Shown: positions 1 through 45,050 of the stretch, in pieces | How positions within the stretch are numbered: position 1 is the first letter of the stretch | Layout of the letters: each line of letters opens with the position of its first letter | Source: Squalus acanthias | Taxonomy: Eukaryota | Length of the DNA stretch: 64,000 nt | Reading direction: 5' to 3' | NCBI GenBank assembly: GCA_030390025.1 | Contig: JASTWF010000080.1 | Location: forward strand, 124,001-188,000 | Program-made: the position numbers and the translations under genes | Notes under the pieces: model-generated | Databases searched by the model: none | What the model was told of the DNA's origin: nothing | The model's input: only the letters and a program-made list of their open reading frames with translations

Positions 1-147
1 AGGAGTGGCTCTCAGACATTGGCTCTCCATTCCTTAGCCAGGTCACCTCGATGTCTACAGGGTAAAATCCAGTAACCAGGCAGGAGAGAGTGGGCGGTTT
101 GTCCTGACTATTGGGGTCACTTCTGGAGATGAACACTTCGGGCTGAA
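1..147 (-). CDS. MHC class I-like gene copy A, alpha3 (IgC1) exon, truncated by window edge
   Basis: Polypyrimidine-cag acceptor at 150-148; reads (V)QPEVFISRSDPNSQDKPPTLSCLVTGFYPVDIEVTWLRNGEPMSESHS; near-identical to the copy B a3 exon. Confidence 0.93.
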
Positions 148-264: not shown

Positions 265-540
265 CTTTCCTTTCAAAATATTCCTTTCCAGCTCGCAAAT
301 ATAATGTTAAATCATTAACAAATCCTTGTTCTAGATGTGCTTTCCAATACTTGTTCCAGGATTCATCCGAATTCCATTTCTCCATTGTCTTCACTGAATT
401 GTGATTGGTTGCGACCCATCTCATTCTGTCTGGCTCTAAACTAAGATAGTCCTTTCCGTCATATCCAACACGCATCGATCTCTTAATGGAGCCGTCGTCA
501 GTTATTTCAACAATTGAAATCCATTGAAAAATGTGAAGTC
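265..540 (-). CDS. MHC class I-like gene copy A, alpha2 exon
   Basis: 276-bp phase-1 exon bounded by ag and gt; GLHIFQW...GYDGKDYLSL...VKTMEKWN...LYLRAGKEYFERK; contains no cysteines. Confidence 0.94.
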
Positions 541-3337: not shown

Positions 3338-3598
3338 CGGATGTCTGGTTTGTCCCCTTCATTATCGTATTCAGATTCTCCTTTGCCTTGCCTGACCGTG
3401 TGTTCCCGAGATCTGTGAGATATTCCCAGTATTCCACATCGAAAGCGTCTGCCATGAACTGCTGCCTGGGGATCATCCGACGGATATCAGTGTCATGATA
3501 ATTAAGTTGAACTCCCTTCACCATCGCAACATTAGTAACCTCGGGAAAGTCACTAATGCCAGAGATTGCTGTGTACATCACAGTAAGTGAGTTAGTGT
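3338..3598 (-). CDS. MHC class I-like gene copy A, alpha1 exon
   Basis: 261-bp exon, tttacag acceptor and gtaag donor; DTNSLTVMYTAISGISDFPEV...EYWEYLT...IMKGTNQTS with the N86-type glycosylation site NQT. Confidence 0.94.
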
Positions 3599-5200: not shown

Positions 5201-5386
5201 TCCAACTCTATCTGAAACTCAACCAGGGGACATCTGGAGAGAGATATTGAGGAGACTCTCCTGACCAGGGAACATCTGGAGAGAGATGTTGAGGAGACCC
5301 TTCTGACCAGGGAACATCTGGAGAGAGGAATTGTGGATAACCCGTGGACAGGTCTGTTGTTTATCATCATAACCAGGAAACATGTG

Positions 5387-7302: not shown

Positions 7303-7354
7303 CGGGAGAGACCCAGGAAAAACACAGGGATATGGAGAAAAGGATCAGCAACAT
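7303..7354 (-). CDS. MHC class I-like gene copy A, leader exon
   Basis: ATG at 7354, hydrophobic signal MLLILFSISLCFSWVSP, phase-1 donor gtaagt; paralogue at 40738-40789. Confidence 0.9.
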
Positions 7355-7590: not shown

Positions 7591-7847
7591 AGAGTCAGCC
7601 TGTGAATCAGAAACTAGAGAGAGACTGAACCAGCCTGGGACACCAGCTCCAGTGTAAAGGGAGGAGACACTGAGATCCCGGGCTCCCCCTCACAGTGAAC
7701 ACACTGACACTGGTCCCCCTCCCCCGGAAACCTTAACACTGGCTCTGCTCCAGACTGGAGTAACACCACAACATCTTACAGTTATCGACCACATTTAATA
7801 GAGTGAACATCACACGGGACATCACAGAGCATCTCACCGAGCGGGGG

Positions 7848-9109
7848 AGAGTGAGGGGAGGGGGTCAAACTAACAGAGAGTGAGGGGAGGGGGTCAAACT
7901 AACAGAGAGTGAGGGGAGGGGGTCAAACTAACAGAGAGTGAGGGGAGGGGGTCAAACTAACAGAGAGTGAGGGGAGGGGGTCAAACTAACAGAGTGAGGG
8001 GAGGGGGTCAAACTAACAGGCAGTGAGGGGAGGGGTCAAACTAACAGAGAGTGAGGGGAGGGGTCAAACTAACAGAGAGTGAGGGGAGGGGGTCAAACTA
8101 ACAGAGAGTGAGGGGAGGGGGTCAAACTAACAGAGTGAGGGGAGGGGGTCAAACTAACAGAGAGTGAGGGGAGGGGGTCAAACTAACAGGGAGTGAGGGG
8201 AGGGGGTCAAACTAACAGGGAGTGAGGGGAGGGGGTCAAACTAACAGGGAGTGAGGGGAGGGGTCAAACTAACAGAGTGAGGGGAGGGGGTCAAACTGAC
8301 AGGGAGTGAGGGGGGGGGTCAAACTAACGGAGTGAGGGGAGGGGGTCAAACTAACAGAGTGAGGGGAGGGGTCATACTAACAGGGAGTGAGGGGAGGGGA
8401 TCAAACTAACAGGGAGTGAGGAAAGGGAGTCAAACTAATAGAGAGTGAGGGGAGGGGATCAAACTAACAGGGAGTGAGGGGAGGGAGTCAAACTAACAGA
8501 GAGTGAGGGGAGGGGATCAAACTAACAGGGAGTGAGGGGAGGGAGTCAAACTAACAGAGAGTGAGGGGAGGGGGTCAAACTAACAGAGAGTGAGGGGGGG
8601 GAGTCAAACTAACAGAGAGTGAGGAGAGGGGGTCAAACTAACAGGGAGTGAGGGGAGGGGTCAAACTAACAGGGAGTGAGGGGAGGGGATCAAACAGGGA
8701 GTGAGGGGAGGGGGTCAAACTAACAGGGAGTGCGAGGAGGGGGTCAAACTAACAGAGAGTGAGGGGAGGGGTCAAACTAACAGAGAGTGAGGGGAGGGAG
8801 TCAAACTAACGGAGTGAGGGGAGGGGGTCAAACTAACAGGGAGTGAGGGGAGGGGTCAAACTAACAGAGAGTGAGGGGAGGGGGTCAAACTAACGGAGTG
8901 AGGGGAGGGGGTCAAACTAACGGAGTGAGGGGAGCGGGTCAAACTAACAGAGTGAGGGGAGGGGGTCAAACTAACAGGGAGTGAGGGGAGGGGGTCAAAC
9001 TAACAGGGAGTGAGGGGAGGGGGTCAAACTAACAGGGAGTGAGGGGAGGGGGTCAAACAAACAGAGAGTGAGGGGAGGGGGTCAAACTAACAGAGTGAGG
9101 GGAGGGGGT
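7848..9109. repeat. 29-bp G-rich minisatellite upstream of copy A
   Basis: About 43 units of gagagtgaggggagggggtcaaactaaca. Confidence 0.95.
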
Positions 9110-10745: not shown

Positions 10746-13041
10746 TGGATTCGTTCTGGTTTTTCCCACGAGCTGTTACCTACAAAACACAATTATTACA
10801 GTCACAGTTAAATTCAGTCTTACAATCATTTCACGCGACAACTAATCAACAAATCAGATCTCTCTTTTACTCGTATCCATCTTGTGGATAATTCATGTTA
10901 AACATGATTTCTCCTCAGCGCTCAATTGTCCCAATCCAAATTTCATGTAACTCTCCACTTCAACTACGATTTCATTCCCTCTAACAGGTACCAGTGTGTT
11001 TAACTCTATTCTGATTGTTTCATTAGTTAGATAGTCTCTCGATGGAGTATGCGTCAATGCTTTAAAAGTTGTCTCACTCTCCTGAGCCACATTAACCATT
11101 TCATGTCGGGCTGTTGTCAAGTAACTGAGCATGTCTGAGACCCGTTCTTCAGTGCAGATTTACCATATATTTCCGGATGATAATTGCTCCATACGCACAA
11201 ATCACATTTGCACACTTGTACCGGTATCTCAATATCATGCCAAACGTGCCATCCGATACAAGCCACTCTCGGGCTTTCAGATGATCCTATCAAAAGATTG
11301 TAGTTGTCTGGAGATCTTTGCTCATCTTCCTCTGCATGGTCCCGATGTCTTGGGTAGTGGCCAGACTATCAATTCAGTTTTCTTAAAAAGTACATAGGCA
11401 AGACACAAATGTCTCCAAGAGAAAGCTGTCAATTTACTATTTGTAACTACACTTTCCTGACTTTCACTAGAAAGTTAGGAACATTTCCATTTGATGGTGT
11501 AATTCTCCTGTTTCTATCTTACACCCTCAATCACTTCCTCTCTCCATTTTACACATCCCATTAATTATCATTCATATCTCATTCATGAGCCCTGGAGGAA
11601 CTTTACTGTCCAGTACAATATTTACGATAGAAAACCATAGATCAAACATTCTCACTTGGTCCAAGTTATTAACATTTTTTATTTATCATTATTTTAGAGG
11701 ATCTTTTATTTTCCCAAAAGTAACCCAATATATAGTGCCTGAGTCCATTTTGTCATTTCAAAATTATCCCAAAATCCAAACAGCAGTATTGTTGAACTGA
11801 TCGGTTTTGTCAATGTTCAATTTCATTTCTATCAATTTATCTTATCAATTCCAATTTCAGAAACAAGTGATTCTCAGGCTAGGTGGTTTACACAGTGTTT
11901 TAACATTAGAGACAGAAGTGTTACAATTAGTTTACAAGATAACTTCCATATAACAAAAGAAAGCAGGGAATCCATTGTGGCTCTGCTTAAGAGCCCAAGG
12001 GGTTAATTTATCACATCATAATTTACCTTGTGTCAATCTGGGGAAATATTAACTTAAAATTAAGAAACTTAAGTTTAATAATGTCCAATATCTTTAAATT
12101 TCATTCAGCAATACTAAAGTTGTTGCTCGGTGAACTTAAACAGCTGTCAGTGGAAAGGGTTAACTCCTTTGCAGGTTTTTAAGAAGGTGGAGCGAAACAT
12201 TGTCAGGCGCACGCAATTGCGTCACTTTGCGTAAATTTAAAAATACTTTCGCGATCGAAAAAGACAGTTGTGTTTTCACACTTTAACTAAACACGAACAG
12301 AACAGATAAAACAAAACAAAACAGCACATGCTTGCAGGAAACAGTAAATTACGTCATATTTCTTATTGTCCTTTCTTCAGATGCCTTTCCAAATGACTGT
12401 AAAAACATTGAATACAACTGGAGAAAAATTAGTTTTTCACATTCAAACAAATCAAATCAAATCAAACCGCTTTGGAAGATTTCACCATAGCAACCACGAT
12501 TCCAAGGTTAAATCTTAGACGGAAACTTAGGGGTAAAAATTCAGTTGGTTGCGCCTCCCGTTAGCGCCTTAAAAGGGCGCTAATGGGGCGTTAAGGCGCT
12601 AACGCCCGGGCGCAGCGCTGTTTGCGCCGCTCGAGAACTTAACTTGAGATTGTGCGGCGGCGCTAAAGCTTACCGCTGCGACCACCTGCGCGCGCAGATT
12701 GTGACGTCATTCCGTGGTGCAACGCCCTTGGGGCGCCCCGGAGCGGAAATTGAGTGGCGCCCCCTGCCTTACCGCCTGGCGCTTCCAACGACCGGAAGAC
12801 TGGAACGTTATCAATCGGTGTGGGGCTGGGGGGGGCGCTATTTAAAGGGGGCCTCTTCCTGTCTTTTTCTGTGGTCGACATTTATGCACCACTCGTTCTG
12901 AGAGAGAGAGAGAGATTCGGAGAGAGAGAGAGAGAGACTTCTACATTGACTCAACGCTTTGTGAGGTAGTTTTGCCTAGTTCATCCTAACTTTGCTGCTA
13001 CTTTCGTTGCTGTACCTCATTACTTTTCTGGCAAAGAGAAT

Positions 13042-14202
13042 ATGGGGGCTGCAATGATTGGGGGCGTCGTCCTGCTCCAGCTCAATCGGAGGATAGTGAG
13101 ACGCAGACAGAGAGTGGCAATGATGGCCAGACGGAGGAGGGCCATCAGGCGCATGTACAGGAGAGCTTACCCTCCCAGGGTATATCGTGAACAGCTCTCC
13201 TACATCCACATGTCCGAGGAGCTGTGTTTGCGAAGGCTGCGATTCAGCAAGGAGGTGGTCACTGAGCTCTGCCACCTGCTGCAGCCAGATCTGCAGCCTC
13301 AGCTGAGGTCCAGGACGTCTCTGTCGATGGCAGTGAAGGTCACAGTGGCTTTGAACTTCTACGCCACTGGCTCATTCCAAGCTGCTGTTGGGGACCTCGC
13401 CAATATCTCCCAGTTTGCGGTGCATCGCTGCATCCGGCAGGTCACCAATGCCCTCTTCACAAGGAGACGAGACTTCATCTCCTTCCCTATGACCCCAGAC
13501 AAGCAGCATGACCGTGCTATGGGCTTTGCGAGGGTAGCGGGCTTCCCCATGGTGCAGGGCGCCATTGACTGCACGCATGTGGCTTTGCGTGCTCCGCGAG
13601 AGAATGCAGAGGAGTTCCGGAACAGAAAGGGGTTCCATTCCTTGAATGTGCAGTTGGTCTGTGACCACAGACAGGTGATTCTCGCTGTCAATGCCCACTA
13701 TCCGGGCAGCTGCCACGATGCTTTCATCCTGCGCCAGAGTACTGTGGCAGAAATTTTCGACGCACCGCATCAGCCAGTTGGTTGGCTTCTGGGGGACAAG
13801 GGGTACGCATTGAGCACCTGGCTGATGACACCGCTCCGTGCGCCAAACACCCCTGCTGAGCTGCGGTACCAGGAAAGCCAACAAGCAACCAGGAACATTA
13901 TTGAGCGCACAATCGGCGTGCTCAAACAACGATTCCGCTGTCTGGACCATTCCGGAGGAGCCCTGCAGTACTCGCCTGAGCAAGTTTCCAAATTCGTAGT
14001 GGTGTGCTGCATGTTGCACAACATGGCAATCCTCAGGACGCAGCCAATGCCACCAGGCCTTGCAGCACCACAAGAGGAGGAGGAGGAAGAGGAGGAACAG
14101 GCCGAGGACGATGATCAGCAGCAGCACCAAGGCAGGAGGGCGGCCCACAATGGTCAAACTGCAAGGGCCGTCCGTCAACGACTAATAGCAAGCCGCTTCT
14201 AG
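13042..14202 (+). CDS. Harbinger DDE transposase (HARBI1-like), intact 386-aa ORF
   Basis: Motifs GAIDCTHV, NRKGFHSLNVQLVCD, PGSCHDAFIL, LLGDKGY, RNIIERTIGVLKQRFRCL, CCMLHN. Confidence 0.96.
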   Translation: MGAAMIGGVVLLQLNRRIVRRRQRVAMMARRRRAIRRMYRRAYPPRVYREQLSYIHMSEELCLRRLRFSKEVVTELCHLLQPDLQPQLRSRTSLSMAVKVTVALNFYATGSFQAAVGDLANISQFAVHRCIRQVTNALFTRRRDFISFPMTPDKQHDRAMGFARVAGFPMVQGAIDCTHVALRAPRENAEEFRNRKGFHSLNVQLVCDHRQVILAVNAHYPGSCHDAFILRQSTVAEIFDAPHQPVGWLLGDKGYALSTWLMTPLRAPNTPAELRYQESQQATRNIIERTIGVLKQRFRCLDHSGGALQYSPEQVSKFVVVCCMLHNMAILRTQPMPPGLAAPQEEEEEEEEQAEDDDQQQHQGRRAAHNGQTARAVRQRLIASRF

Positions 14203-14496: not shown

Positions 14497-16405
14497 CTAC
14501 TTTTTGCCCTTCGAGGGTGATCTCCTTCCCTTGCGCACTTCCCCCCTTCTAACCCTACTGCTCCTCCGTAATGGGACCTCAGTGGCTGCAGCAAGGCTGG
14601 TGGAAGGCTGCTGCTTGTCAGACCCTGACACTGCAGATGCCCCTGAAGGACGGCCTCGACCACTTCTGGGCCTGGAGGGCCCGGCTGCAGACTGCACCAA
14701 CTCTGCATGGGCGGCAGCAGTCTGTCCTACAGGCGGTGGCAAGTGCAGTGGAGAAGTGACAGTGTTGGCAGCAGGAATGCTGTCATCGTGAGAGAGGACA
14801 GCAACTCCCTGCTCGCCCGACACACTGGCACTCCCACGGGGCAGCACTTCAGCATCCGGAGCAATTTGCCGGAGAACAGATTGCTGGCCTGCTGCGGCGC
14901 GGTGACAGCCCCAGGGACATGTGCACGAACCATCGAGGATGGCAGCAGTCAGTGCTCGCGTGGCCTCAATCTGAGTCTGCATGAGAGCAGTCTCAGATGG
15001 GTTCCTGGCAGCCAGTGACTGAATTGCAGCACTAAGCTTTAGTGTGGCATCCGCCTGTGCTACAGCGAAGTGCTCCACACTCCTTGCCAGTGTCTCAATG
15101 CATTCGGGCACCCTTCCCACTGCACCCATGAGCTCAGTGTGCATGCCCACCGCCTGGCTGTTCATTTCTGCAATCAGCCGCTCCTCCTCTGCGTCCATTG
15201 CATTAGGAGTGTCTGGCATACTCTCCCTCTGGGGAGAAGGCTCCCGTTCTTCCCTCCCCCCCCATGGCGTGGCTGCAGCCCGCTGGGTCCTGGAGCTTCA
15301 CCATCATCAGCCCCTTCCCCCCTGCTCCCCCGTTCTTCCCTCCCCCCCCAATGGCGTTGCTGCAGCCCGCTGGGTCCTGGAACTTCACCATCATCAGCCC
15401 CTTCCCCCCTGCTCCCCTCCGGGGAAGGCGTGTTCCCAGTGTGGCCATGGGCTTCCTCGGGAGAGGGTGGCACTGATGCTCCGGCTTCCTCTTCCTCCTC
15501 AGCTGCAGCATCACTCCCAGTGGCAGCTTCAGGGACCATCTCCTCAGCTGGTGAATCACCATCTGAAAGCAGGGAGGTACAAGAGTGGCTTTAGCGTGAG
15601 GACAGGGTGGCAGTAAGGGAGGAATAAGTGCAGCGAGTTAGCAAGTTGGATTGAAAGTGTCAAAGGCTGGTATTGTGAGGGACAAGTGGAAGGACAGAGG
15701 ACAAAAAGGTGATGACCTTACCATTGCTGTCCACAACGGGGTCGGCGTCCCCAGTGGCGACGGGACCGATCACCCGGCTTGCCACAATCCTGTGGACGCG
15801 CTCCTCCAGATCGCTGAGGGGTTGCAGCTGAAGCCGCCCTCCACCCGTCCGTTGCTGCTGTCTCCGATTATGAGCCAGCTTAGCCTGCAAGAAAAAGGAC
15901 AGCATCTGAGTCAATATACAGCCATGGTCTTGCCTGATGTGCCTCCCATAGGTGAATAGCCCTTACAATATGCAGCCATGGTCTTGCCTGATGTGCCTCC
16001 CATAGGTGAATAGCCCTTACTGTATGCAAAGTGTGGAATGTGTGTGTGTGTTTGATGAAAGGGCCATAGGTGTTGCATGAGTGTTGTGCATTGGGGTTTT
16101 AAGACCCTCTGGCCATAGAGTGAGGTTGAGATGGAGGGATGGAGAGGTATTGAGAAAAAGCCACTCACCCTGACGACCCGAGTGAGGTCGTTGAACTTTT
16201 TGCGGCACTGAACATGGGTCCTGGGCACCATGCTCCTGGAGGAGACGCTCTGAGCCACCTCCCTCCACACTCTTCTGAACTCGCGTGGCAAAGGCCTCCT
16301 GCCACTCTCCGGGAACAGCATGCATCGTCTGCGCTCCACTGCGTCAACCAGAGCATCCAAGGCCCGCTCGGTGAAGCGATGAGCGCGTTCTCTCACCCTC
16401 TCCAT
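14497..16405 (-). CDS. Harbinger Myb/SANT-like DNA-binding protein; exons 16405-16169, 15884-15722, 15562-14497; 1-bp frameshift near 15260
   Basis: RAHRFTERALDALV...WREVA...RTHVQCRKKFNDL, then AKLAHNRRQQQRTGGG; canonical splice sites in phase; basic C-terminus LRRSSRVRR. Confidence 0.88.
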
Positions 16406-18874: not shown

Positions 18875-18906
18875 TCACAAAGGAGCCGGCACAGAGACAT
18901 CAGAAG
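18875..18906 (-). CDS. MHC class I-like copy B, cytoplasmic exon with stop
   Basis: Strong acceptor ttttattttctcag; in phase with the TM exon; ASDVSVPAPL*; gtaagt donor after 18871. Confidence 0.65.
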
Positions 18907-19056
18907 CTGAGAAAATAAAACAGAATGTGAGAAATGGGAATAAAATATATAAATAGAGAATGTGAGATATTCTACATCACTGACTGGGCCCAGGAGCCAA
19001 TCACCTCCCAGCAATAACTAAACAGACTCACACATGGTAAATGTGCACAGAGACAA

Positions 19057-20600
19057 GGGACTGGAGGGCGAGGGACTGGAGGGCGAGGGACTGGAGGGCG
19101 AGGGACTGGAGGGCGAGGGACAGGAGGGGGAGGGACTGGAGGGCGAGGGACTGGAGAGCGAGGGACTGGAGGGCGAGGGACTGGAGAGCGAGGGGCAGGG
19201 ACTGGAGGGCGAGGGACAGGAGGGCGAGGGACAGGAGGGGGAGGGACTGGAGAGCGAGGGGCAGGGACTGGAGGGCGAGGGACAGGAGGGGGAGGGACTG
19301 GAGAGCGAGGGACTGGAGGGCGAGGGACAGGAGGGCGAGGGACTGGAGAGCGAGGGACTGGAGGGCGAGGGACAGGAGGGGCAGGGGCTGGAGGGGGAGG
19401 GCCTGGAGGGGGAGGGACTGGAGGGGGAGGGACTGGAGGGCGAGGGACAGGAGGGGCAGGGGCTGGAGGGCGAGGGACTGGAGGGTGAGGGACAGGAGAG
19501 CGAGGGGCAGGGACTGGAGGGGGAGGGACTGGAGGGCGAGGGACTGGAGGGGGAGGGACTGGAGGGCGAGGGACTGGAGGGCGAAGGGCTGGAGGGCGAA
19601 GGGCTGGAGGGCGAAGGACTGGAGGGTGAGGGACAGGAGAGCGAGGGACTGGAGGGGGAGGGACTGGAGGGCGAAGGGCTGGAGGGGCAGGGGCTGGAGG
19701 GCGAGGCACTGGAGGGTGAGGGACAGGAGGGCGAGGGACAGGAGGGGGAGGGACTGGAGGGCGAGGGACAGGAGGGGGAGGGACTGGAGGGCGAGGGACA
19801 GGAGGGTGAGGGACAGGAGGGCGAGGGACAGGAGGGTGAGGGACTGGAGGGCGAGGGACAGGAGGGGGAGGGACTGGAGGGTGAGGGACAGGAGGGCGAG
19901 GGACAGGAGGGTGAGGGACAGGAGGGCGAGGGACAGGAGGGTGAGGGACAGGAGGGCGAGGGACAGGAGGGGGAGGGACTGGAGGGCGAGGGACAGGAGG
20001 GCGAGGGACAGGAGGGGGAGGGGCTGGAGGGCGAGGGACAGGAGGGCGAGGGACTGGATGGGGAGGGACTGGAGGGGGAGGGGGAGGGCCTGGAGGGCGA
20101 GTGGCTGGAGGGGGAGGGGCTGGAGGGCGAGGGTCTGGAGAGGGAGGGGCTGGAGGGCGAGAGACTGGAGGACAAGGGACTGGAGGGCGAGGGACTGAAC
20201 GGCGAGGGACTGGAGGGTGGAGGACTGGAGGGCGAGTGGCTGGAGGGCGAGTGACTGGAGGGCGAGGGACTGGAGGGCGAGGGACTGGAGGGCGAGTGGC
20301 TGGAGGGCGAGAGGCTGGAGGGCGAGAGGCTGGAGGGCGAGTGACTGGAGGGCGAGGGACTGGAGGGGGAGGGGCTGGAGGGCGAGGGGCTGGAGGAGAG
20401 GGGCTGGAGGGCGAGAGGCTGGAGGAGAGGGGCTGGAGGGCGAGGGGCTGGAGGGCGAGAGGCTGAACAGCGAGGGACTGGAGGGTGAAGGACTGGAGGG
20501 CGAGTGACTGGAGGGCGAGGGGCTGGAGGGGGAGGGGCTGGAGGGGGAGGGGCTGGAGGGCGAGGGACTGGAGGGCGAGGGACAGGATGGCGAGGGTCTG
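19057..20600. repeat. 15-bp G-rich minisatellite
   Basis: About 100 units of gagggcgagggactg; explains the EGEGL, PSSPS and RARDW ORFs. Confidence 0.95.
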
Positions 20601-20698
20601 GTGTGAGGATCGGAGAGTGTAATAAATGTCAGTTAGAATGGGGATAACCCATTATCAGAGTGTGAGCACACACCTAGTGTGAGGATCGGAGAGTGTGT

Positions 20699-21085: not shown

Positions 21086-21199
21086 CTCTCCGTTGTTTTA
21101 TCCAGATGAATATTCCAATTATCCCGATTATAACCAGTGCAGCGACTGATCCAATTATAATTCCAGGATAGGAGCGTGCACCACTGTTTTCCGGTATTT
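21086..21199 (-). CDS. MHC class I-like copy B, transmembrane exon
   Basis: tttcag acceptor and gtaag donor, 114 bp, phase 1; EIPENSGARSYPGIIIGSVAALVIIGIIGIFIWIKQRR (absent from the ORF track). Confidence 0.92.
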
Positions 21200-23849: not shown

Positions 23850-24128
23850 CCCACCGATAGACCTTTGCCTCTGCCAGGCTGCTGTGTTTAATTTGACAGG
23901 AGTATTGATCCTCATCCCCAGCATTCACTTCAATCTCTTTCTTGATCTGATGGGTCCCATTGTGGTTCGGTCGAACCCCCGAGGAGTGGCTCTCAGACAC
24001 TGGCTCTCCATTCCTTAGCCAGGTCACCTCGATGTCTACAGGGTAAAATCCAGTAACCAGGCAGGAGAGAGTGGGCGGTTTGTACTGAATATTGGGGTCA
24101 CTTCTGGAGATGAACACTTCGGGCTGAA
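23850..24128 (-). CDS. MHC class I-like copy B, alpha3 (IgC1) exon
   Basis: 279 bp; LSCLVTGFYPVDIEVTWLRNG...YSCQIKHSSL; gtaag donor. Confidence 0.95.
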
Positions 24129-24245
24129 CTGAGAGGGGAAAGGGAGAAAACACAAACAGTAGACAGACACCGAATGGAATGGGAGAACGGTTTCATAGAT
24201 CTGTGAAGTTAGATCAGAACATGGGATAAAAACTGAAATCAATAC

Positions 24246-24521
24246 CTTTCCTTTTGAGATACTCCTTTCCAACTCGCAAATATAAATTTAAAAGGTCAAC
24301 AAGTTCTTCTTCCAACTGCCATTTCCAATGCTTGTTCCAGGATTCATCCGAATTCCATTTTTCCATTGTCTTCACTGCAATGTCACTGGATGCGACCCAT
24401 CTCATGCTGTCTGACTCTAAACTAATATAGTCCTTTCCGTCATATCCAAACCGCATCCATCTCTTCATGGAGCCGTCGTCAGTGACATCAACAGTCCTTA
24501 TCCATTGGAAAATGTGAACTC
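24246..24521 (-). CDS. MHC class I-like copy B, alpha2 exon
   Basis: 276 bp; GVHIFQWIRTVDV...FGYDGKDYISL...KTMEKWN...LYLRVGKEYLKRK; contains no cysteines. Confidence 0.95.
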
Positions 24522-25019
24522 CTATCAGTAACCAACCAGAGATCAATAATCAATAATTAATGGGAATGTCTCTTTATAACTCAGACAGTAGTTGGGGGCA
24601 ATTTTAACCGAATCCGCCGGTTGGGAAACTGATGGTTCTACACCCGGTCCGAGGTTACACCAAATTGGAGTCAGTGGAGAGCAATCTTGGTCAGGGTGTA
24701 AATTTAGTGTTCCACCCAATCCTGTGGGTTTCCAGCCCGGTGAGTTAGGTTAGAATTAGCCCCAGTGGCTCTTTCTATCTCTCTACGGTAATGGGATGGG
24801 TTAGAGTCACAGTCTGATCAGAGGGGAAAGGGGCTGTAGAATCAGGGGGAAATGGGGGGTTAGAGTCACAGTCTGATCAGAGGGGAAAGGGGCTGTAGAA
24901 TCAGGGAGAAATGGAGGGTTAGAGTTGTTAACCCCTTCTGAACCATGACAGAATAAAAAGACAATAACAAGGTAAATTTCAGGTAAAATTCACCATTTTT
25001 ATCACATGAGGCGAAAGTT

Positions 25020-27620
25020 TAGTTTGGGATTGACACAGGGCTGTGGGGAGAGAGCGGGGATGTGGGAATAGTTTGGGATTGATCCAGGGCTATGGGGAGA
25101 GAGCGGGGCCGTGGGAATAGTTGGGGATTGATCCAGGGCTATGGGGAGAGGGCGGGGCAGTGGGATTAGTTTGGGATTGACACAGGGCTATGGGGAGAGA
25201 GTGGGGCAGTGGGATTAGTTTCGGATTGATACAGGGCTATGGGGAGAGAGCAGGGATGTGGGATCAGTTGGGATTGATACAGGGCTATGGGGAGAGTGGG
25301 CCAGTGGGATTAGTTTGGGATTGATACAGGGCTCTGAGGAGAGAGAGTGGGGCAGTGGGATTAGTTTTGGATTGATACTGGGCTATGGGGAGAGAGCGGG
25401 GCAGTGGGATTAGTTTGGGATTGATACAGGGCTATGGGGAGAGAGTGGGGCAGTGGGATTAGTTTGGGATTGATACAGGGCTATGGGGAGAGAGCAGAAA
25501 GTAGAATCAGTTGGGATTGATACAGGGCTCTGGGGAGAGAGTGGGGCAGTGGGATTAGTTGGGATTGATACAGGGCTATGGGGAGAGAGTGGGGCAGTGG
25601 GATTAGTTTGGGATTGATACAGGGCTCTGGGGAGAGAGCAGAAAGTAGAATCAGTTGGGATTGATACAGGGCTATGAGGAGAGAGCGGGGCAGTGGGATT
25701 AGTTTGGGATTGATACAGGGCTATTGGGAGAGAGTGGGCCAGTGGGATTAGTTTGGGATTTATATAGGGCTATGGGGAGAGAGCGGGCAATGGGATTAGT
25801 TTGTGATTGATACAGGGCTATGGAGAGAGTGGGCAGTGGGATTAGTTTGGGATTGATACAGGGCTATGGGGAGAGTGGGCCAGTGGGATTAGTTTGGGAT
25901 TGATACAGGGCTCTGAGGAGAGAGAGTGGGGCAGTGGGAATAGTTTTGGATTGATACAGGGTTATGGGGAGAGAGCGGGGCAGTGGGATTAGTTTTGGAT
26001 TGATACAGGGTTATGGGGAGAGAGTGGGGCAGTGGGATTAGTTTGGGATTGATACAGGGCTATGGGGAGAGAGTGGGGCAGTGGGATTAGTTTGGGATTG
26101 ATACAGGGCTATGGGGAGAGAGCAGAAAGTAGAATCAGTTGGGATTGATACAGGGCTATGAGGAGAGAGCGGGGCAGTGGGATTAGTTTGGGATTGATAC
26201 AGGGCTATGAGGAGAGAGCGGGACAGTGGGATCAGTTGGGATTGATACAGGGCTATGAGGAGAGAGCGGGACAGTGGGATCAGTTGGGATTGATACAGGG
26301 CTATGAGGAGAGAGCGGGACAGTGGGATCAGTTGGGATTGATACAGGGCTATGAGGAGAGAGCGGGGCAGTGGGATTAGTTGGGATTGATACAGGGCTAT
26401 GAGGAGAGAGCGGGGCAGTGGGATTAGTTGGGATTGATACAGGGCTATGAGGAGAGAGTGGGGCAGTGGGATTAGTTTGGGATTGATACAGGGCTATGAG
26501 GAGAGAGCGGGACAGTGGGATCAGTTGGGATTGATACAGGGCTATGAGGAGAGAGCGGGACAGTGGGATCAGTTGGGATTGATACAGGGCTATGGGGAGA
26601 GAGTGGGGCAGTGGGATTAGTTGGGTTTGATACAGGGCTATGAGGAGAGAGCGGGACAGTGGGATCAGTTGGGGTTGATACAGGGCAATGAGGAGAGAGC
26701 GGGACAGTGGGATCAGTTGGGATTGATACAGGGCTACGGGGAGAGAGTGGGACAGTGGGATTAGTTGGGTTTGATACAGGGCTATGAGGAGAGAGCGGGA
26801 CAGTGGGATCAGTTGGGATTGATACAGGGCTATGGGGAGAGAGTGGGGCAGTGGGATTAGTTGGGTTTGATACAGGGCTATGGGGAGAGAGCGGGACAGT
26901 GGGATTAATTGGGTTTGATACAGGGCTATGGGGAGAGAGTGGGGCAGTGGGATTAGTTGGGTTTGATACAGGGCTATGAGGAGAGAGCGGGACAGTGGGA
27001 TCAGTTGGGATTGACACCGGGCTATGGGGAGAGAGTGGGGCAGTGGGATCAGTTGGGTTTGATACAGGGCTATGAGGAGAGAGCGGGACAGTGGGATCAG
27101 TTGGGGTTGATACAGGGCTATGAGGAGAGAGCGGGACAGTGGGATCAGTTGGGATTGATACAGGGCTACGGGGAGAGAGTGGGACAGTGGGATTAGTTGG
27201 GTTTGATACAGGGCTATGAGGAGAGAGCGGGACAGTGGGATCAGTTGGGATTGATACAGGGCTATGGGGAGAGAGTGGGGCAGTGGGATTAGTTGGGTTT
27301 GATACAGGGCTATGGGGAGAGAGCGGGACAGTGGGATTAATTGGGTTTGATACAGGGCTATGGGGAGAGAGTGGGGCAGTGGGATTAGTTGGGTTTGATA
27401 CAGGGCTATGAGGAGAGAGCGGGACAGTGGGATCAGTTGGGATTGACACCGGGCTATGGGGAGAGAGTGGGGCAGTGGGATCAGTTGGGTTTGATACAGG
27501 GCTATGAGGAGAGAGCGGGACAGTGGGATCAGTTGGGTTTGCTCTTGCAAATGTTTGGCAGAGACACCATGGGCTGAATGGCCTCCTTCCATGCTTTAAA
27601 TATCTATGGTTCTATCTCTA
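25020..27620 (+). repeat. ~48-bp minisatellite grading into a CR1 3' end
   Basis: About 52 units of gattgatacagggctatggggagagagcggggcagtgggattagttgg, ending in gggctgaatggcctcct...tctatggttctat. Confidence 0.93.
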
Positions 27621-28885: not shown

Positions 28886-29146
28886 CGGCTGTCTGGTTTG
28901 TCCATTTCATTATCTTATTCAGATTCTCCTTCATCACCTCGTAACGCTCCTTCCCCAGACGATTGAGATAATTCCAGTCTTCCACATTAAGAGTGTCTGT
29001 TATGAACTGTTGTCTGGAAGCCATCTGCTGAGTGTTACTGTCATAATAGGATAACGTAACTCCATTGATCATTGCCACACCTACAAACTCAGGGCAATCA
29101 GTGGTGCTGGAGATTCCCGTATAGAGCACAGTAAAGGAATTACTTT
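28886..29146 (-). CDS. MHC class I-like copy B, alpha1 exon
   Basis: 261 bp; ESNSFTVLYTGISSTTDCPEFVGVAMINGV...IMKWTNQTA; acag acceptor and gtaag donor. Confidence 0.95.
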
Positions 29147-34955: not shown

Positions 34956-37336
34956 ATACAAAAAGAAAATACTGCAGATGCTGGAAATCTGAAATAAAAA
35001 CAGAAAATGCTGGAGAAACTCAGCAGGTCAGGTAGCATCTGTGAAGAGAGAAACAGAGTTAACGTTTCAGGTTGATGACCTTTCATCAGAACTGGAAAAA
35101 AGCAGGAAATGGAACAGATTTTTAAGCAAGTGTAGAGGCTGGGAAAGGGGGGAGGGGATGAAAGAACAAAAGGGAAGGTCTGTGATAGGATAGAAGGCGG
35201 AAGAGGTTAAGAGACATTAAGAGATATTCAAGGCAAAAGGAGATGGTAATGGGACAGGTTAAGAAACAAAGGATGGCTCTAGATAAAGTGTAAATTGCGC
35301 TGGCAGAATGAAAGACAGCTGCCATGTGGGGGAGAAGAACAGAAGGCCAAACAATAAAAGTGTGGATAAAAAATATATATATATGATAGGGGCCGAGGTT
35401 ATGATCTGAAATTGTTGAACTCTATGTTGAGTCCAGAAGGCAGTAAAGTGCCTAATCGAAAGATGAGGTGCTGTTCCTCGAGCTTACGCTGAACTTCCGT
35501 GGAACAATGCAAGAGGCCGAGGACGGTGAGGTCTGAGTGGGAATGGAGCGGAGAATTAAAGTGACAGGCCACCGGGAGCTCGGGGTCCCCCTTACGGACT
35601 GAACGGAGGAGTTCCGCAAAGTGGTCACTCAATCTGCGTTTGGTCTCCCCAATGTAGAGGAGACCACATCGTGAGCAGCGAATACAGTATACTAAATTGC
35701 AAGAAGTACAAGTAAATCGCTGTTTCACCTGGAAGGGGTGTTTGGGGACCTGGACAGTGGGAAGGTATAAGGGCATGTGTTGCATCTCCTGCGCTTGCAC
35801 GGGAAGGTGCCGGGTGAAGGGGAAGGGGTGTTGGGGGTGATAGAGGAGTGGACTAGGGTGTCGCGGAGGGAGCGGTCCCTACGGAATGCTGAAAGGGGAG
35901 GTGAGGGGAAGATGCGTTTGGTGGTGGGATCATGCTGGAGGTGGCAGAAATGGCGGAGGATGGTCCGTTGAATGTGGAGGCTGGTGGGGTGAAAGGTGAG
36001 GACAAGGGGAACTCTGTCGTGGTTCCGGGAGGGAGGGGCAGGGGTGAGGGCAGAAGTGCGGGAGATAGAACGGACACGGTCAAGGGCTGTGTCAACCACT
36101 GTAGAGGGGAATCCTCGGTTGAGGAAAAAGGAAGACATATCGGAAGCACTGGTATGGAAGGTGGCATCATCAGAGCAGATGCGGCGGAGACGGAGAAACT
36201 GGGAGAATGGAATAGAGTCCTTACAGGAGGCGGGGTGGGAGGAAGTGTAGTCCAGGTAGCTGTGAGAGTCAGTGGGCTTGTAGTGAATGTTTGTCAATAA
36301 CCTATCCCCAGAGATGGAGACAGAGATGTCAAGGAAGTGAAGGGAAGAGTCGGAGATGGACCATGAGAAGGTGAGGGTGGGGTGGAAATTGTAAGCAAAG
36401 TGAATGAAATTATCTAGTTCAGGGCGAGAGCAGGAAACGGCACCGATACAGTCATCAATGTACCGGAAAAAGAGGTGAGGGAGGGGACCTGAGTAGGACT
36501 GGAACAAAGAATGTTCCACATATCCCACGAAAAGGCAGGCATAGCTAGGACCCATGCGGGTACCCATAGCAACACCTTTAATTTGGAGGAAATGAGTGGA
36601 GTCAAAGGAGAAGTTGTTCAATGTGAGAACAAGTTCAGCTAGGCGGAGGAGGGTGGTGGTGGATGGGGACTGGTTGGGCCTCTGTTCAAGGAAGAAGCGG
36701 AGCGCCCTCAGACCGTCCTGGTGGAGGACGGAGGTGTAGAGGGATTGGACAATCATAGTGAAAAGGAGGCGGTTGGGGCCAGGAAACTGGAAACTCTTAA
36801 AGTGGCGGAGGGTGTCGGAAGAGTCGTGTATGTAGGTGGGAAGAGACTGGACAAGGGGAGAAAAAATAGAGTCGAGATAGGAAGAGACAAGTTCCGTGGG
36901 GCAAGAACAGGCTGAAACGATGGGTCTACCAGGGCAGTCCTGTTTGTGGATCTTGGGAAGAAGGTAGAAGCGGGCTGTGCGGGGTTGGGGAACTATGAGG
37001 TTGGCGGTCGTGGGGGGAAGATCTCCAGAGGAGATGAGGTCAGTCACAGTCTTGGAAACGGTGGCTTGATGTTCGGTAGTGGGATCATGGTCCAGGCAGA
37101 GGTAGGAGGAGGTGTCGGAGAGTTGGCGTTCAGCTTCCGCTAGGTAGAGGTCGGTTCGCCAGACAACAACAGTACCACCCTTGTCAGCAGGTTTAATGAC
37201 AATGTCGGGGTTGGATCTGAGAGAATGGAGTGCTGCAAGTTCAGAGGGAGGTAGGTTGGAGTGAGTGAGGGGAGCAGAGAAATGGAGACGGCCAATGTCA
37301 CGCCGGCAGTTTGCAATGAGGAGGAGGAGGAGGAGG
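34956..37336 (-). mobile_element. Penelope-like element (RT plus GIY-YIG), 5'-truncated
   Basis: FYLLPKIHK..PGRPIVS, GVAMGT, RYIDD, NLVYCIRC..LYIGET; 11-bp TSD atggatatcta at 34945-55 and 37337-47. Confidence 0.93.
35057..35093 (-). ncRNA. Minimal type I hammerhead ribozyme in the Penelope 3' region
   Basis: agtt CTGATGA a aggt-catca-acct GAAA cgtt aact: core boxes, stem II, palindromic stem III, stem I. Confidence 0.82.
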
Positions 37337-38703
37337 ATGGATATCTAGCTGGCTTCAAGACAGAAAGCAAAGAGTAGGGGTAAAAGGTAGCTATTCACAG
37401 TGGCAGAAGGTGGGTAGTGGTGTTCCACAAGGATCAGTGCTGGGACCACTGCTGTCCACAATGTATATTAACGATTTAGACTTTGGAATCAAAAACACAA
37501 TTTCTAAATTTGCAAATTACACCAAATTGGCGGGGGTGGGGTTGGGGGGGGGGTGGTGGTAATAGTCAATACCGAAGAGGACTGCAACATTAATAAACTT
37601 GAAGAATGGGCATACAATTGGCAAATTAAATTCAACACAGATAAATGTGAGGTATTACATTTTGGTAAGATAAATAGGGAGGTTATATATTACTTGGAAA
37701 ATACGAATCTAAATGGGGTAGAGGTGCAAAGGGATCTTGGAATACAAATCAGTGAAAGTCGCGAGACAGGTTAACAAAGCACTAGGGTTTATTCCTAGAG
37801 GGATTGAATTGAAAAGTAGAGAAGTTATGCTGAACTTGTATCGAACCTTGGTTAGACCACAATTGGAGTGCTGCGTACAATTCTGGTCGCCATATTCTAA
37901 AAAGGAGAAAGAGGAACTAGAGAGGGTGCATAAAAGATTTACAAGGATGATACCAGGAAGGCGAGCGTATACATATCAGGAAAGGATGAACAGGCTGGGT
38001 CTCTTTTCTCTTGAAAAAAGAAAACTGAGGGGTGACGCAATTGAGGTCTTTAAAATCATGAAAGGTTTAGTTAGAGTGGATACAGAGAGAATGTTTCCAC
38101 TTGTGGGGAAGAGCATAACTAGAGGCCATCAATATAAGATAGTCACCAAGAAATGAAATAGGAAATTCAGAAAGAACTTCTTTACCCAGAGAGTGGTGAG
38201 AATGTGGAACTCACTACCACAGGGAGTGGTTGAAGCGAATAGCATAGATGCATTTAAGGGGAGGCTGGACAAACATATGAGGGAGAAGGGAATAGAGGGT
38301 TATGCTGATAGATTTAGATAAGGAAAGACGGGAGGAGGCTCAAGTGGAGCATAAACACCAGCATGGACTGGTTAGGCCGAATGGCCTGTTTCTGTGCTGT
38401 ATACCCTATGTAATTCTATGACTTCCAGAAGGCATTTGATAAAGTCCCTCATAAGAGACTGTTAGCTAAAGTTGAAGCCCATGGAATTGAAGGCAAATTA
38501 TTGGCCTGGTTAGGAAACTGGCTGAGCGACAGGAGACAGAGAGTAGGGATAATGGGCAGGTACTCTAATTGGCAGGATGTGACTAGTGGTGTCCCGCAGG
38601 GATCTGTGTTGGGGCCTCAACTATTCACCGTATTTATTAACGACTTGGATGATGGGATAAAAAGCCACATATCCAAGTTTGCCGATGACACAAAGATAGG
38701 CGG

Positions 38704-40737: not shown

Positions 40738-40789
40738 CGGAAGAGATCCAGGAGAAACACAAAAATATGGAGAAAAGGATCAGCAACAT
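40738..40789 (-). CDS. MHC class I-like copy B, leader exon
   Basis: MLLILFSIFLCFSWISS, phase-1 donor gtaagt. Confidence 0.92.
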
Positions 40790-41614: not shown

Positions 41615-42570
41615 AACCCTCTCACTGGGCACTCTGCACTGTGCCCACTGCATGAACACACTCACTGGACACTCTGTACTGTGCCCACTTCATGAACCCC
41701 TCACTGGACACTTTGTACTGTGCCCACTACATGAACCCCTCACTGGACACTCTGTACTGTGCCCACTACATGAACCCCTCACTGGACACTCAATACTGTG
41801 CCCACTCCATGAACCCCCTCACTGGACACTCTGTACTGTGCCCACTCCATGAACCCCCCTCACTGGACACTCTGTACTGGGCCCACTCCATGAACCCCTC
41901 ACTGGACACTCTGTACTGTGCCCACTCCATGAACCCCTCTCTGGACTCTCTGTACTGTGCCCACTCCATGAACCGCTCACTGGACACTCTGTACTGTGCC
42001 CACTCCATGAACCCCCCTCACTGGACACTCTGTACTGGGCCCACACCATGAACCCCTCTCTGGACACTCTGTACTGTGCCCACTCCATGAACCCCTCACT
42101 GGGCACTCTGTACTGTGCCCACTCCATGAACCCCCTCACTGGACACTCTGTATTGTGCTCATTCCATGAACCCCTCACTGGACACTCTGTACTGTGCTCA
42201 CTCCATGAACCCCTCACTGGACACTCTGTATTGTGCTCATTCCATGAACCCCTCACTGGACACTCTGCACTGTGCCCACTCCATGAACCCCTCACTGGAC
42301 ACTCTGTACAGTGCCCACTCCATGAACACCTCACTGGGCACTCTGCACTGTGCCCACTCCATGAACACCCTCACTGGACACTCTGTACTGTGCCCACTCC
42401 ATGAACCCTCACTGGACACTCTGTACTGTGCCCACTCCATGAACCTCCTCACTGGGCACTCTGTACAGTGCCCACTCCATGAACACCCTCACTGGACACT
42501 CTGTACTGTGCCCACTCCATGAACACCCTCACTGGACACTCTGTACTGGGCCCACTCCATGAACCCCTCA
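41615..42570. repeat. 39-41-bp minisatellite
   Basis: About 24 units of gaacccctcactggacactctgtactgtgcccactccat. Confidence 0.95.
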
Positions 42571-42713: not shown

Positions 42714-45050
42714 AATAGCAAAATACTGCGGATGCTGAAAATCTGAAATAACAACAGAAAATGCTGGAAATACTCAGCAGGCCCGGCAGCATCCGTGGAG
42801 AGAGAAACAGAGTTAACGGTTCAGCTCGATGACCCTTCGTCAGAACTGGAAAAAGCTGGAGATATAACAGATATTAAGCAGGTGCAGAGACAGGGCGGGG
42901 GGGTGGGGGGGTGGGGGAGGAATTGAAGGAACATACTATGCTAAGATAAGAGGCAGGAAAGATAAAATGTTGCAAATCGGGCAAAATCATACAGCATGAT
43001 AAATGGGGGCAGGGGTTATAGTTTGAAATTGTTGAACTCAATGTTGAGTCCAGAAGGCTGTAATGTGTCTAATTGAAAGATGAGGTGCTGTTCCTCGAGC
43101 TTACGTTGAGCTTCATTGGAACAGTGTAAGAGGCCGAGGACGGAGAGGTCAGAGTGGGAGTGGAGCGGAGAATTAAAGTGACAGGCGACCGGAAGATCAG
43201 GGTCATGCTTACAGACTGAACGGAGGTGTTCCGCAAAGCGATCACCCAATCTGCGTTTGGTCTCCCCAATGTAGAGGAGACCACATCATGAGCAGCGAAT
43301 ACAGTATACTAAATTGAAAGAAGTACAAGTAAATTGCTGTTTCACCTGGAAGGAGTGTTTGGGGCCCTGGGCTGTGGGAAGGGAGGAGGTAAAAGGGCAG
43401 GTGTTGCATCTCCTGCGCTTGCACGGGAAGGTGCCAGGCGAAGGGGAAGGGGTGTTGGGGGTGATTGAGGAGTGGACCAGGGTGTCGCGGAGGGAGCGGT
43501 CCCTTCGGAATGCTGAAAGGGGAGGTGAGGGGAAGATGCGTTTGGTGGTGGGATCACGTTGGAGGTGGCGGAAATGGCGGAGGATGATCTGTTGAATGTG
43601 GAGGCTGGTGGGGTGAAAGGTGAGGACAAGGGGAACCCTATCGTGGTTCTGGGAGGGAGAGGAAGGGGTGAGAGCAGAAGTGCAGGAAATGGAACAGACA
43701 CGGTCGAGGGCCGTGTCAACCAAGGTAGAGGGAATCCTCGGTTGAGGAAAAAGGAAGACATGTCGGAAGCACTAGTATGGAAGGTGGCATCGTCAGAACA
43801 GACATGGCGGAGACGGAGAAACTGGGAGAATGGAATAGAGTCTTTACAGGAAGCGGGGTGGGAGGAAGTGTAGTCCAGGTAGCTGTGGGAGTCAGTGGGC
43901 TTGTAGTGGATGTTTGTCGAAAGCCGATCGCCAGAAATGGAGATGGAGAAGTCAAGGAAGGGAAGAGAAGAGTCGGAGATGGACCATGTGAAGGTGAGGG
44001 AAGGGTGGAAATTGGAAGTAAAGTGAATGAACTTATCTAGTTCAGGGCGAGAGCAGGAAACGGCACTGATACAGTCATCAATGTACCGGAAAAAGAGGTG
44101 AGGGAGGGGACCTGAATAGGACTGGAACAAAGAGTGTTCCACATATCCCATGAAAAGGCAGGCATAGCTAGGGCCCATGTGGGTTCCCATAGCAACACCT
44201 TTAATTTGGAGGAAGTGAGTGGAGTCAGAGGAGAAGTTGTTCAATGTGAGAACAAGTTCAGCCAGGCGGAGGAGGTTGGTGGTGGATGGGGACTGGTTGG
44301 GCCTCTGTTCAAGGAAGAAGCGGAGCGCCCTCAGGCCATCCTGGTGGAGGATGGAGGTGTAGAGGGATTGTACGTCCATAGTGAAAAGGAGACGGTTGGG
44401 GCCAGGAAACTGTTAAAGTGGCGGAGGGCATCGGAAGAGTCGCGAATGTAGGTGGGAAGAGACTGGACAAGGGGAGAAAAAATAGAGTCGAGATAGGAAG
44501 AGATAAGTTCCGTGGGGCAAGAACAGGCTGAAATGATGGGTCTACCGGGGCAGTCCTGTTTGTGGATCTTGGGAAGGAGGTAGAAGTGGGCTGTGTGGGG
44601 TTGGGGGACGATGAGGTTGGCAGCCATGGAGGGAAGAATTCCAGAGATGAGGTCAGTGACAGTCTTGGAAACAATGGTTTGATGTTCGGGAGTGGGGTCA
44701 TGGTCCAGGGGGAGGTAGGAGGAGGTGTCAGAGAGTTGGCGTTCAGCTTCTGCACGGTAGAGGTCAGTTCGCCAAACAACAACAGCACCACCCTTGTCAG
44801 CAGGTTTAATGATAATGTTAGGGTTGGATCGGAAAGAACGGAGTGCTGCAAGTTCAGAGGGAGGTAGGTTGGAGTGAGGGAGGGGAGCAGAGAACTGGAG
44901 ACGGCCGATGTCACGCCGGCAGTTTGCAATGAAAAGATCTAGAGAGGGTAAGAGGCCAGAGGGAGGTGTCCAGGTAGAACGAGAATTTTGAAAGCGGGAG
45001 AAAGGGTCAGCTGTGCGGGGGGGAAGACTCCTGGCCAAAGAAGTGGGCAT
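42714..45050 (-). mobile_element. Second Penelope-like element, frameshifted, with degenerate hammerhead at 42811-42847
   Basis: Same family as 34956-37336; RT and GIY-YIG in broken frames. Confidence 0.93.

What the first reader, a model, noticed from the sequence alone, without database searches (positions are those of the whole stretch)
24246..24521. Non-classical MHC class I pair lacking the alpha2 disulfide
Seen: the a2 exons of both copies (here and 265-540) contain no Cys. By eye, C101 is V in both and C164 is F (copy A) or L (copy B). Frames, exon lengths and splice sites are intact. Known: C101-C164 is almost invariant in class I molecules. Inference: paired hydrophobic replacement in two diverged paralogues points to a lineage trait, not decay, perhaps a more flexible groove. 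It could belong to a described shark non-classical lineage (e.g. UCA or UEA) or to a new one; I cannot tell from the sequence alone.
Basis: partly seen in the sequence, partly recalled or inferred. Interest (0 to 1): 0.8.

Follow-up and report, generated by a model that had tools for sequence, protein, structure and literature searches.

The report
Shark UEA-type nonclassical MHC-I pair
These are two intact shark immune genes (non-classical MHC class I) that lack a normally conserved disulfide bond; the loss is real, but it is shared by a large gene family found across sharks that is most likely the already described UEA lineage.

Summary
Observation confirmed. Both minus-strand alpha2 exons are open and Cys-free: position 101 is V in both; position 164 is L (24246 copy, B) or F (265 copy, A). 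Gene B has leader to transmembrane exons intact; gene A runs off the window. The loss is a lineage trait. Among named shark relatives from 13 species, C101 occurs in 0 of 93 scorable alpha2 domains and C164 in 9 of 98. It is not strictly a paired hydrophobic swap: V101 is nearly fixed, while 164 is highly variable (19 of 98 polar or small). The family is one clade (100/100), and A and B fall in different cross-order groups. B's white-shark orthologue lies in the B2M-side MHC-Ib cluster that PMC10751288 assigns to UDA plus multicopy UEA. Most likely these are UEA members (about 0.85). No named UEA sequence and neither primary paper were available, so prior reporting of the cysteine loss is unchecked. 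Two extra points: peptide N-terminal anchors are lost at the same groove end, and alpha3 is homogenised between paralogues while alpha1/alpha2 stay distinct.

The parts
40738..40789 (-). Gene B leader exon (ATG at 40789)
   Evidence: tblastn with family proteins; GT donor and in-frame splicing
28886..29146 (-). Gene B alpha1 exon; V7, D59, W84, N86 glycan site, one extra unpaired Cys near position 20
   Evidence: Pfam MHC_I E 1.3e-5, below the curated cut-off as a half domain
24246..24521 (-). Gene B alpha2 exon, no Cys; V101 codon 24490-24492, L164 codon 24301-24303
   Evidence: Pfam MHC_I E 2.6e-16
23850..24128 (-). Gene B alpha3 exon (C1-set, both Cys present)
21086..21199 (-). Gene B connecting peptide and transmembrane exon
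18875..18906 (-). Candidate last coding exon of gene B (short tail ending in a stop); the usual Tyr-bearing first cytoplasmic exon was not found
   Evidence: seen, translated; exon scans found no Tyr-bearing exon; inferred, no transcript
7303..7354 (-). Gene A leader exon
3338..3598 (-). Gene A alpha1 exon; V7, Y59, G84, N86 glycan site
265..540 (-). Gene A alpha2 exon, no Cys; V101 codon 509-511, F164 codon 320-322
1..147 (-). Gene A alpha3 exon, first 147 nt (cut by window start)
23982..24254 (-). Homogenised tract shared with gene A (1-273): end of alpha2, intron, start of alpha3; 4 mismatches in 273 nt

Best explanation
Two tandem, probably functional genes of the large shark non-classical MHC class I family, most likely UEA, from a squalomorph shark. 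SHOWN: the family lacks C101 throughout, so the alpha2 disulfide cannot form in any scorable member. Position 164 varies by paralogue group (L in B's group, F in A's). Residues that anchor a peptide N-terminus (Y7, Y159, W167) are replaced at that same end of the groove, while T143/K146/W147 at the other end, the beta2m-contact residues, the N86 glycan site and the alpha3 disulfide are kept. INFERRED (about 0.45): each gene makes a membrane heavy chain paired with beta2-microglobulin, in which hydrophobic packing of V101 against residue 164 and its neighbours replaces the covalent staple. The freed 158-172 helix then gives each paralogue its own groove for a fixed, rather hydrophobic ligand that is not an N-anchored 8-10-mer (lipopeptide, modified or extended peptide, or small molecule), read by innate-like T or NK-type receptors. 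Gene conversion keeps alpha3 uniform within a species while alpha1/alpha2 persist as old specialised groups. The confidence value is for family assignment plus functional lineage trait.
For: Searches returned only sharks as close relatives: 23 of 23 hits; 111 named family proteins among 120 listed; 106 named sharks plus 2 unnamed among 108. C101 0 of 93, V101 85 of 93, both Cys 0 of 86. Family clade 100/100; B groups with six genera of other sharks (8 rows, 100/100), A with another cross-order group (10 rows, 99/91). B's white-shark orthologue LOC121291255 is labelled MHC-Ib in the cluster next to BRD2 and B2M, which the paper says holds single-copy UDA and multicopy UEA. A versus B: alpha1 dN 0.33, dS 0.94, Fisher p 3e-4. 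H93, Q96, G120, D122, N86 and T88 in 76 of 76. Canonical A-pocket residues 97 of 380 versus F-pocket 219 of 304. The AlphaFold model of B's closest relative is an ordinary class I fold, with pLDDT 91-94 around positions 101 and 164; best PDB matches are class I chains at about 30% identity. alpha3 tree follows shark orders; nearest neighbour is same-species in 49 of 67 for alpha3 versus 17 of 67 for alpha1-2.
Against: No sequence named UEA was found in any search, so the assignment is by position, copy number and elimination. The supplement labels genes only 'MHC-Ib' ('UEA' 0 hits). alpha2 dN<dS is not significant on its own (0.157 versus 0.30, p 0.13). The two window grooves are only slightly more hydrophobic (-0.15, -0.12) than other shark class I (-0.37 to -0.48) and no more than a bat class I (-0.10); the family mean is 0.22. 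The 158-172 helix varies in classical class I too (recalled), so its variability is not specific to disulfide loss. No expression, ligand or beta2m-binding data. The model is of a relative (P0043), and AlphaFold confidence does not measure flexibility.
Confidence: 0.82

Rival explanations
1. A separate, unnamed multigene lineage lying in the same MHC-Ib cluster as UEA and UDA.
For: No named UEA protein was recovered; the white-shark cluster has 16 MHC-Ib entries without lineage labels.
Against: The family accounts for 13 named white-shark proteins (isoforms and fragments included) on one chromosome-length contig. The papers read name only two expanded shark MHC-Ib families, UBA and UEA, and place UBA in another cluster. 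It includes whale shark and bamboo shark genes, the genomes recalled from the UEA paper.
Confidence: 0.07
2. The genes are UCA, the divergent dogfish lineage; the window comes from a squalomorph shark.
For: alpha3 of gene B groups with Squalomorphi (98); UCA is recalled as distantly related to UEA.
Against: UCA is recalled as confined to dogfish sharks, whereas A and B each have orthologues in several galeomorph orders. No Squalus protein appeared, so no direct comparison was possible.
Confidence: 0.04
3. Decaying pseudogenes in which the cysteines were lost by drift.
For: No transcript evidence; the usual first cytoplasmic exon of B was not found; long repeat- and transposon-rich introns.
Against: Open frames and AG/GT sites; V101 in 85 of 93 relatives; alpha1-2 68-79% identical to B's five closest cross-species relatives; alpha1 dN/dS about 0.36. 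A Heptranchias relative (P0007) shows the same short-tail junction.
Confidence: 0.04
4. Functional, but with a closed or ligand-free groove (HFE, FcRn or MIC-like); the alpha1/alpha2 surface serves as a receptor-binding or stress ligand. This rivals only the ligand part of the best explanation.
For: Bulky residues at groove positions in B (W84, W97, R99, M114, F116); loss of N-terminal anchors.
Against: T143/K146/W147 are largely kept (57, 69, 76 of 76); no large deletion in the platform; variation includes many groove-lining positions.
Confidence: 0.3

Closest known systems
Shark UEA non-classical class I lineage (Almeida et al. 2021, doi 10.4049/jimmunol.2000851; title seen in reference lists only, content recalled)
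   Same: Shark-only, expanded multigene family; orthologue in the BRD2/B2M-side MHC-Ib cluster beside a UDA-like gene; old cross-order subgroups; loss of invariant peptide anchors.
   Different: No tested difference. Whether the paper reports the C101-C164 loss or alpha3 homogenisation could not be read. The two window grooves are at the less hydrophobic end of the family.
Shark UDA (represented by P0113, 'nonclassical MHC class I antigen' of Ginglymostoma; its identity as UDA is my inference)
   Same: Same cluster (second half of the fused white-shark model LOC121291255); near-identical leader peptide.
   Different: Keeps C101 and C164 and 8 of 9 anchors; about 31% identity to the family; separate clade.
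Shark classical UAA / UBA (PDB 6LUP; P0120)
   Same: Class I fold, exon structure, N86 glycan, beta2m contacts.
   Different: Both Cys and most anchors kept; about 30% identity; outside the family clade.
Teleost non-classical S and P lineages (PMC4364491, passages)
   Same: Non-classical class I with altered anchors and odd cysteines.
   Different: The passages read say they keep the alpha2 cysteines and add others; this family removes them.

Membership tests
MHC class I heavy chain | Leader, alpha1, alpha2, alpha3, TM exons in phase 1; MHC_I plus C1-set domains | tested here: met
   fold (relative P0043)
MHC class I heavy chain | alpha2 disulfide C101-C164 | tested here: not met
   absent family-wide
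UEA | Expanded multigene family (PMC10751288, PMC12562908 passages) | tested here: met
   111 named family proteins from 13 shark species, isoforms and fragments included; two tandem copies in the window
UEA | Located in the BRD2/B2M-side MHC-Ib cluster with UDA (PMC10751288) | tested here: met
   Through the white-shark orthologue of B, LOC121291255; the window itself holds no BRD2 or B2M
UEA | Present in sharks, not detected in rays or chimaeras (recalled) | tested here: met
   No ray or chimaera name among the hits listed; word-filtered searches, so absence is weak evidence; one search shows no unnamed cluster between 39% and 45% identity, and the 45% hit is a family member
UEA | Loss of the nine invariant peptide-terminus residues (list recalled) | tested here: met
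   B keeps 5 of 9, A 6 of 9; family 2-7 of 9 in 76 rows
UEA | Unusually hydrophobic groove (recalled) | tested here: inconclusive
   Family mean 0.22 versus -0.37 to -0.48 for other shark class I; window genes -0.15 and -0.12 (groove position list recalled)
UEA | Three sublineages (recalled) | tested here: inconclusive
   Several cross-order groups, backbone unresolved
UEA | Clusters with a sequence published as UEA | not testable with these tools
   No protein named UEA; accession look-up unavailable; paper not held
UEA | Weak tissue expression (recalled) | not testable with these tools
   No RNA data
UCA | Restricted to dogfish sharks (recalled) | tested here: not met
   Orthologues in six orders
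UCA | Clusters with spiny dogfish UCA | not testable with these tools
   No Squalus protein recovered
UDA | Single copy (PMC10751288); 8 of 9 anchors kept (recalled) | tested here: not met
UFA / UGA (CD1-like) | Single or low copy (PMC12562908) | tested here: not met
   Multicopy; no identified UFA or UGA sequence was compared directly
Classical UAA | Single gene, invariant anchors and alpha2 disulfide kept | tested here: not met

The most novel reading that the evidence does not exclude
It is not yet in print that a whole pan-shark class I family has abolished the alpha2 disulfide by fixing V101, turning residue 164 and the A-pocket end of the alpha2 helix into a paralogue-specific variable patch for a new class of ligand, while gene conversion keeps one shared alpha3 per species. 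That would give old, orthologous, disulfide-free ligand-binding heads on a constantly homogenised constant domain.
Probability: 0.2. Interest if true: 0.58.

Novelty: new member of a known kind. Interest (0 to 1): 0.3.

Why it matters
C101-C164 is described as a conserved structural bond of class I heavy chains (PMC9359109, passages), and its redox state is linked there to folding and the peptide-loading complex. A natural family with many members in 13 shark species that does without it, including members with a lone C164, is a ready test system for what the bond does. It also helps narrow what shark non-classical class I molecules bind; their functions are called unknown in PMC10751288. The two window genes themselves are ordinary members of a family that is very probably already described.

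Tried and rejected
Primary papers: Almeida 2021 (UEA) and 2020 (UDA) are not held. Nine full-text searches turned up no paper that I saw stating that UEA or UCA lacks C101/C164; this does not show it is unpublished. PMC9138301 'UEA' is a lectin. PMC6523485, PMC9586880 and PMC8713811 passages gave nothing on this lineage. Accession numbers for the homologues could not be obtained, so only LOC121291255 could be tied to a published gene map. No solved structure of this family exists in the PDB copy. An alternative disulfide was rejected: neither window alpha2 has a Cys, B has one Cys in alpha1, A none, and only 1 truncated model among 107 family-like domains has two or more alpha2 Cys. The Tyr-bearing cytoplasmic exon of B was not found. 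A promoter motif scan found CCAAT/TATA-like sites but no ISRE or kB match to my recalled patterns; not used as evidence. No complex with beta2m was predicted: no shark beta2m sequence was in hand. The order in which the two cysteines were lost, and whether C164 is retained or regained in its 9 carriers, is left open. Viral and metagenome contig collections stayed unchecked; they and the prokaryotic collection are not relevant to a shark gene.

Full report
Observation. Both intervals are 276-nt minus-strand exons with AG acceptors and GT donors, open in one frame and free of Cys. Numbered against solved class I chains and a named macaque class I, position 101 is V in both, and position 164 is L in the 24246 copy (gene B) and F in the 265 copy (gene A).

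Anatomy. Gene B: leader 40738-40789, alpha1 28886-29146, alpha2 24246-24521, alpha3 23850-24128 and TM 21086-21199 splice into one open frame. A probable short last exon lies at 18875-18906; the Tyr-bearing cytoplasmic exon common in relatives was not found. Gene A: leader 7303-7354, alpha1 3338-3598, alpha2 265-540, with alpha3 cut by the window start. Pfam gives MHC_I for the four alpha1/alpha2 exons and C1-set for B's alpha3.

Relatives. The alpha2 search gave 23 hits, all shark. The profile search gave 127 hits, of which 120 were listed: 111 named family proteins from 13 shark species in six orders (order labels from my knowledge), 3 other shark class I, 3 mammalian and 3 unnamed. The alpha3 search gave 108 hits, 106 named sharks and 2 unnamed. 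No ray, chimaera or Squalus name appeared; these searches are word-filtered, so absence is weak evidence. The exhaustive search of 50% representatives showed no unnamed cluster between 39% and 45% identity, and the 45% hit was a family member. All counts are of database proteins, including isoforms and fragments, not genes.

The cysteines across the family. Of 105 named family alpha2 domains, position 101 was scorable in 93, position 164 in 98 and both in 86; 19 truncated or mis-spliced rows were dropped from the pair count. Position 101: V 85, A 3, I 2, L 2, G 1, C 0. Position 164: L 32, F 26, Y 10, C 9, S 6, G 5, D 5, T 2, V, H, W 1 each. No domain has both. In 76 full-length rows, 164 ranks 9th most variable of 175 positions and 101 ranks 139th. 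So the fixed trait is V101; 164 is free. Which cysteine went first, and whether C164 is kept or regained in its carriers, is left open.

Phylogeny. In an alpha1-alpha2 tree of 88 rows (93 passed the filters, 5 were duplicates), the family is one clade at 100/100, apart from a UAA/UBA-like protein and a three-species clade that keeps both Cys (the tool warns that the long outgroup branches may attract). Gene B sits in an 8-row group (100/100) with Pristiophorus, Heptranchias, Heterodontus, Chiloscyllium, Mustelus, Carcharodon and Cetorhinus, all L164. Gene A sits in a 10-row group (99/91) with F164 in 9 rows, the tenth a dubious model. Each copy is therefore an old orthologous group older than the split of the shark superorders (several hundred million years, recalled).

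Which lineage. B's white-shark orthologue is the first half of LOC121291255. The supplement of PMC10751288 labels it MHC-Ib at 80.11-80.19 Mb on chromosome 19, within the run of MHC-Ib genes that follows BRD2 and B2M. The text says that cluster holds single-copy UDA and multicopy UEA, and puts UBA in a separate cluster. PMC12562908 names UBA and UEA as the two expanded families and UDA, UFA and UGA as single or low copy. The second half of the same fused model groups with the Ginglymostoma 'nonclassical MHC class I antigen', which keeps 8 of 9 anchors and which I infer is UDA. By position, copy number, distribution and elimination the family is UEA. This is not a direct sequence match: no UEA-named protein was found, the supplement has no lineage labels, and the UEA and UDA papers are not held. 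Their supplements may bear on every novelty claim here.

Function rather than decay. Between A and B, alpha1 has dN 0.33 and dS 0.94 (Fisher p 3e-4); alpha2 has 0.157 and 0.30 (p 0.13, not significant). H93, Q96, G120, D122 and the N86-x-T88 site are present in 76 of 76 rows (role labels recalled), and both alpha3 cysteines are invariant in the 55-row alignment. An AlphaFold model of B's closest relative (P0043, 79% identical over alpha1-2) has mean pLDDT 82, with 91-94 around positions 101 and 164, and matches class I structures at about 30% identity. It says nothing about flexibility.

Likely mechanism. The disulfide ties down the alpha2 helix segment at the peptide N-terminal end of the groove (established knowledge). 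That same end has lost its anchors: B has V7, D59, Q159, L167 and A has V7, H159, D167. Family-wide, canonical A-pocket residues are 97 of 380 against 219 of 304 for the F pocket, and segment 158-172 is the most variable part of alpha2 (mean entropy 1.77 versus 0.53 for 115-137). Fourteen of the 44 alpha2 differences between A and B lie in one 40-nt stretch there. I infer a beta2m-paired surface molecule whose helix is held by hydrophobic packing and whose paralogues each bind a fixed non-canonical ligand (about 0.45); a closed, ligand-free groove is the main rival (about 0.3). Against over-reading: that helix varies in classical class I too (recalled), and the window grooves are only mildly hydrophobic (-0.15, -0.12; family mean 0.22; other shark class I -0.37 to -0.48; bat -0.10).

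Concerted evolution. A and B are 71% identical in alpha1 and 84% in alpha2, but 99.1% in the alpha2-alpha3 intron and 98% in the 147 nt of alpha3 available, with 4 mismatches in 273 nt. Across species the alpha3 tree sorts by shark order (4 changes, the minimum; shuffled mean 34.4; few columns, FastTree). The nearest neighbour is same-species in 49 of 67 rows for alpha3 versus 17 of 67 for alpha1-2. Chimeric RefSeq models could inflate the cross-species pattern, but the window comparison is genomic. Gene B's alpha3 groups with squalomorph sharks (98).

Literature seen. PMC10751288: passages, supplement searches and parts 4 and 18 of 98. Passages only: PMC12562908, PMC6523485, PMC9138301, PMC9586880, PMC9359109, PMC8713811, PMC4364491. 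Almeida 2020 and 2021: titles in reference lists only; content recalled. Nine searches showed me no statement of the cysteine loss, but the paper most likely to contain it was unavailable, and anyone aligning UEA would probably have seen it.

Verdict. A real and structurally odd feature, shared by a whole shark gene family that is very probably UEA. New members of a known kind; interest 0.3. The residual upside is the unverified chance that the disulfide loss, its link to the A-pocket end, and the alpha3 homogenisation are unreported.

Noticed in passing
window 23982-24254 versus 1-273: Near-identical intron and alpha3 between two paralogues whose alpha1 exons are only 71% identical; across sharks alpha3 sorts by order while alpha1-2 sort by orthologous group.
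   Followed up: yes
window 53579-54784 (-): ORF with 14 C2H2 zinc fingers, 13 kb upstream of gene B. In sawfish a ZFP2-like gene lies between B2M and the first MHC-Ib gene.
   Followed up: partly
window 12970-14199 (+) and 14500-15297 (-): Intact 410-aa DDE_Tnp_4 (Harbinger-type, label recalled) transposase ORF and a convergent 266-aa ORF without a Pfam hit, between the two MHC genes.
   Followed up: partly
window 40738-40789 and 7303-7354; P0113, P0112: The leader peptide is near-identical between this family and the UDA-like lineage although their ectodomains are about 31% identical; about 600 nt around the two window leaders are 88% identical.
   Followed up: no
window 28886-29146: Gene B alpha1 has one unpaired Cys near position 20, shared with Pristiophorus and Cetorhinus orthologues; possible dimer site.
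   Followed up: no
window 5282-5383 (-): Stretch in intron 1 of gene A whose translation is 88% identical over 34 residues to the N-terminus of a white-shark isoform model, P0098; conserved intronic element, repeat or alternative exon.
   Followed up: no
window 1121-2743, 7847-9109, 19056-20601, 25019-27537, 41615-42570, 60754-62148: Long minisatellite arrays of 15-48-nt units; the 39-nt array in gene A's intron also matches part of a bamboo-shark family model, P0093.
   Followed up: no
window 35728-37344 (-), repeated at 43003-44932: 539-aa retroelement-like ORF in gene B's first intron with a 91% identical second copy upstream of the gene; no Pfam hit.
   Followed up: no
P0003, P0004, P0026: RefSeq models fusing two tandem class I genes; probably annotation artefacts favoured by near-identical exons.
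   Followed up: no
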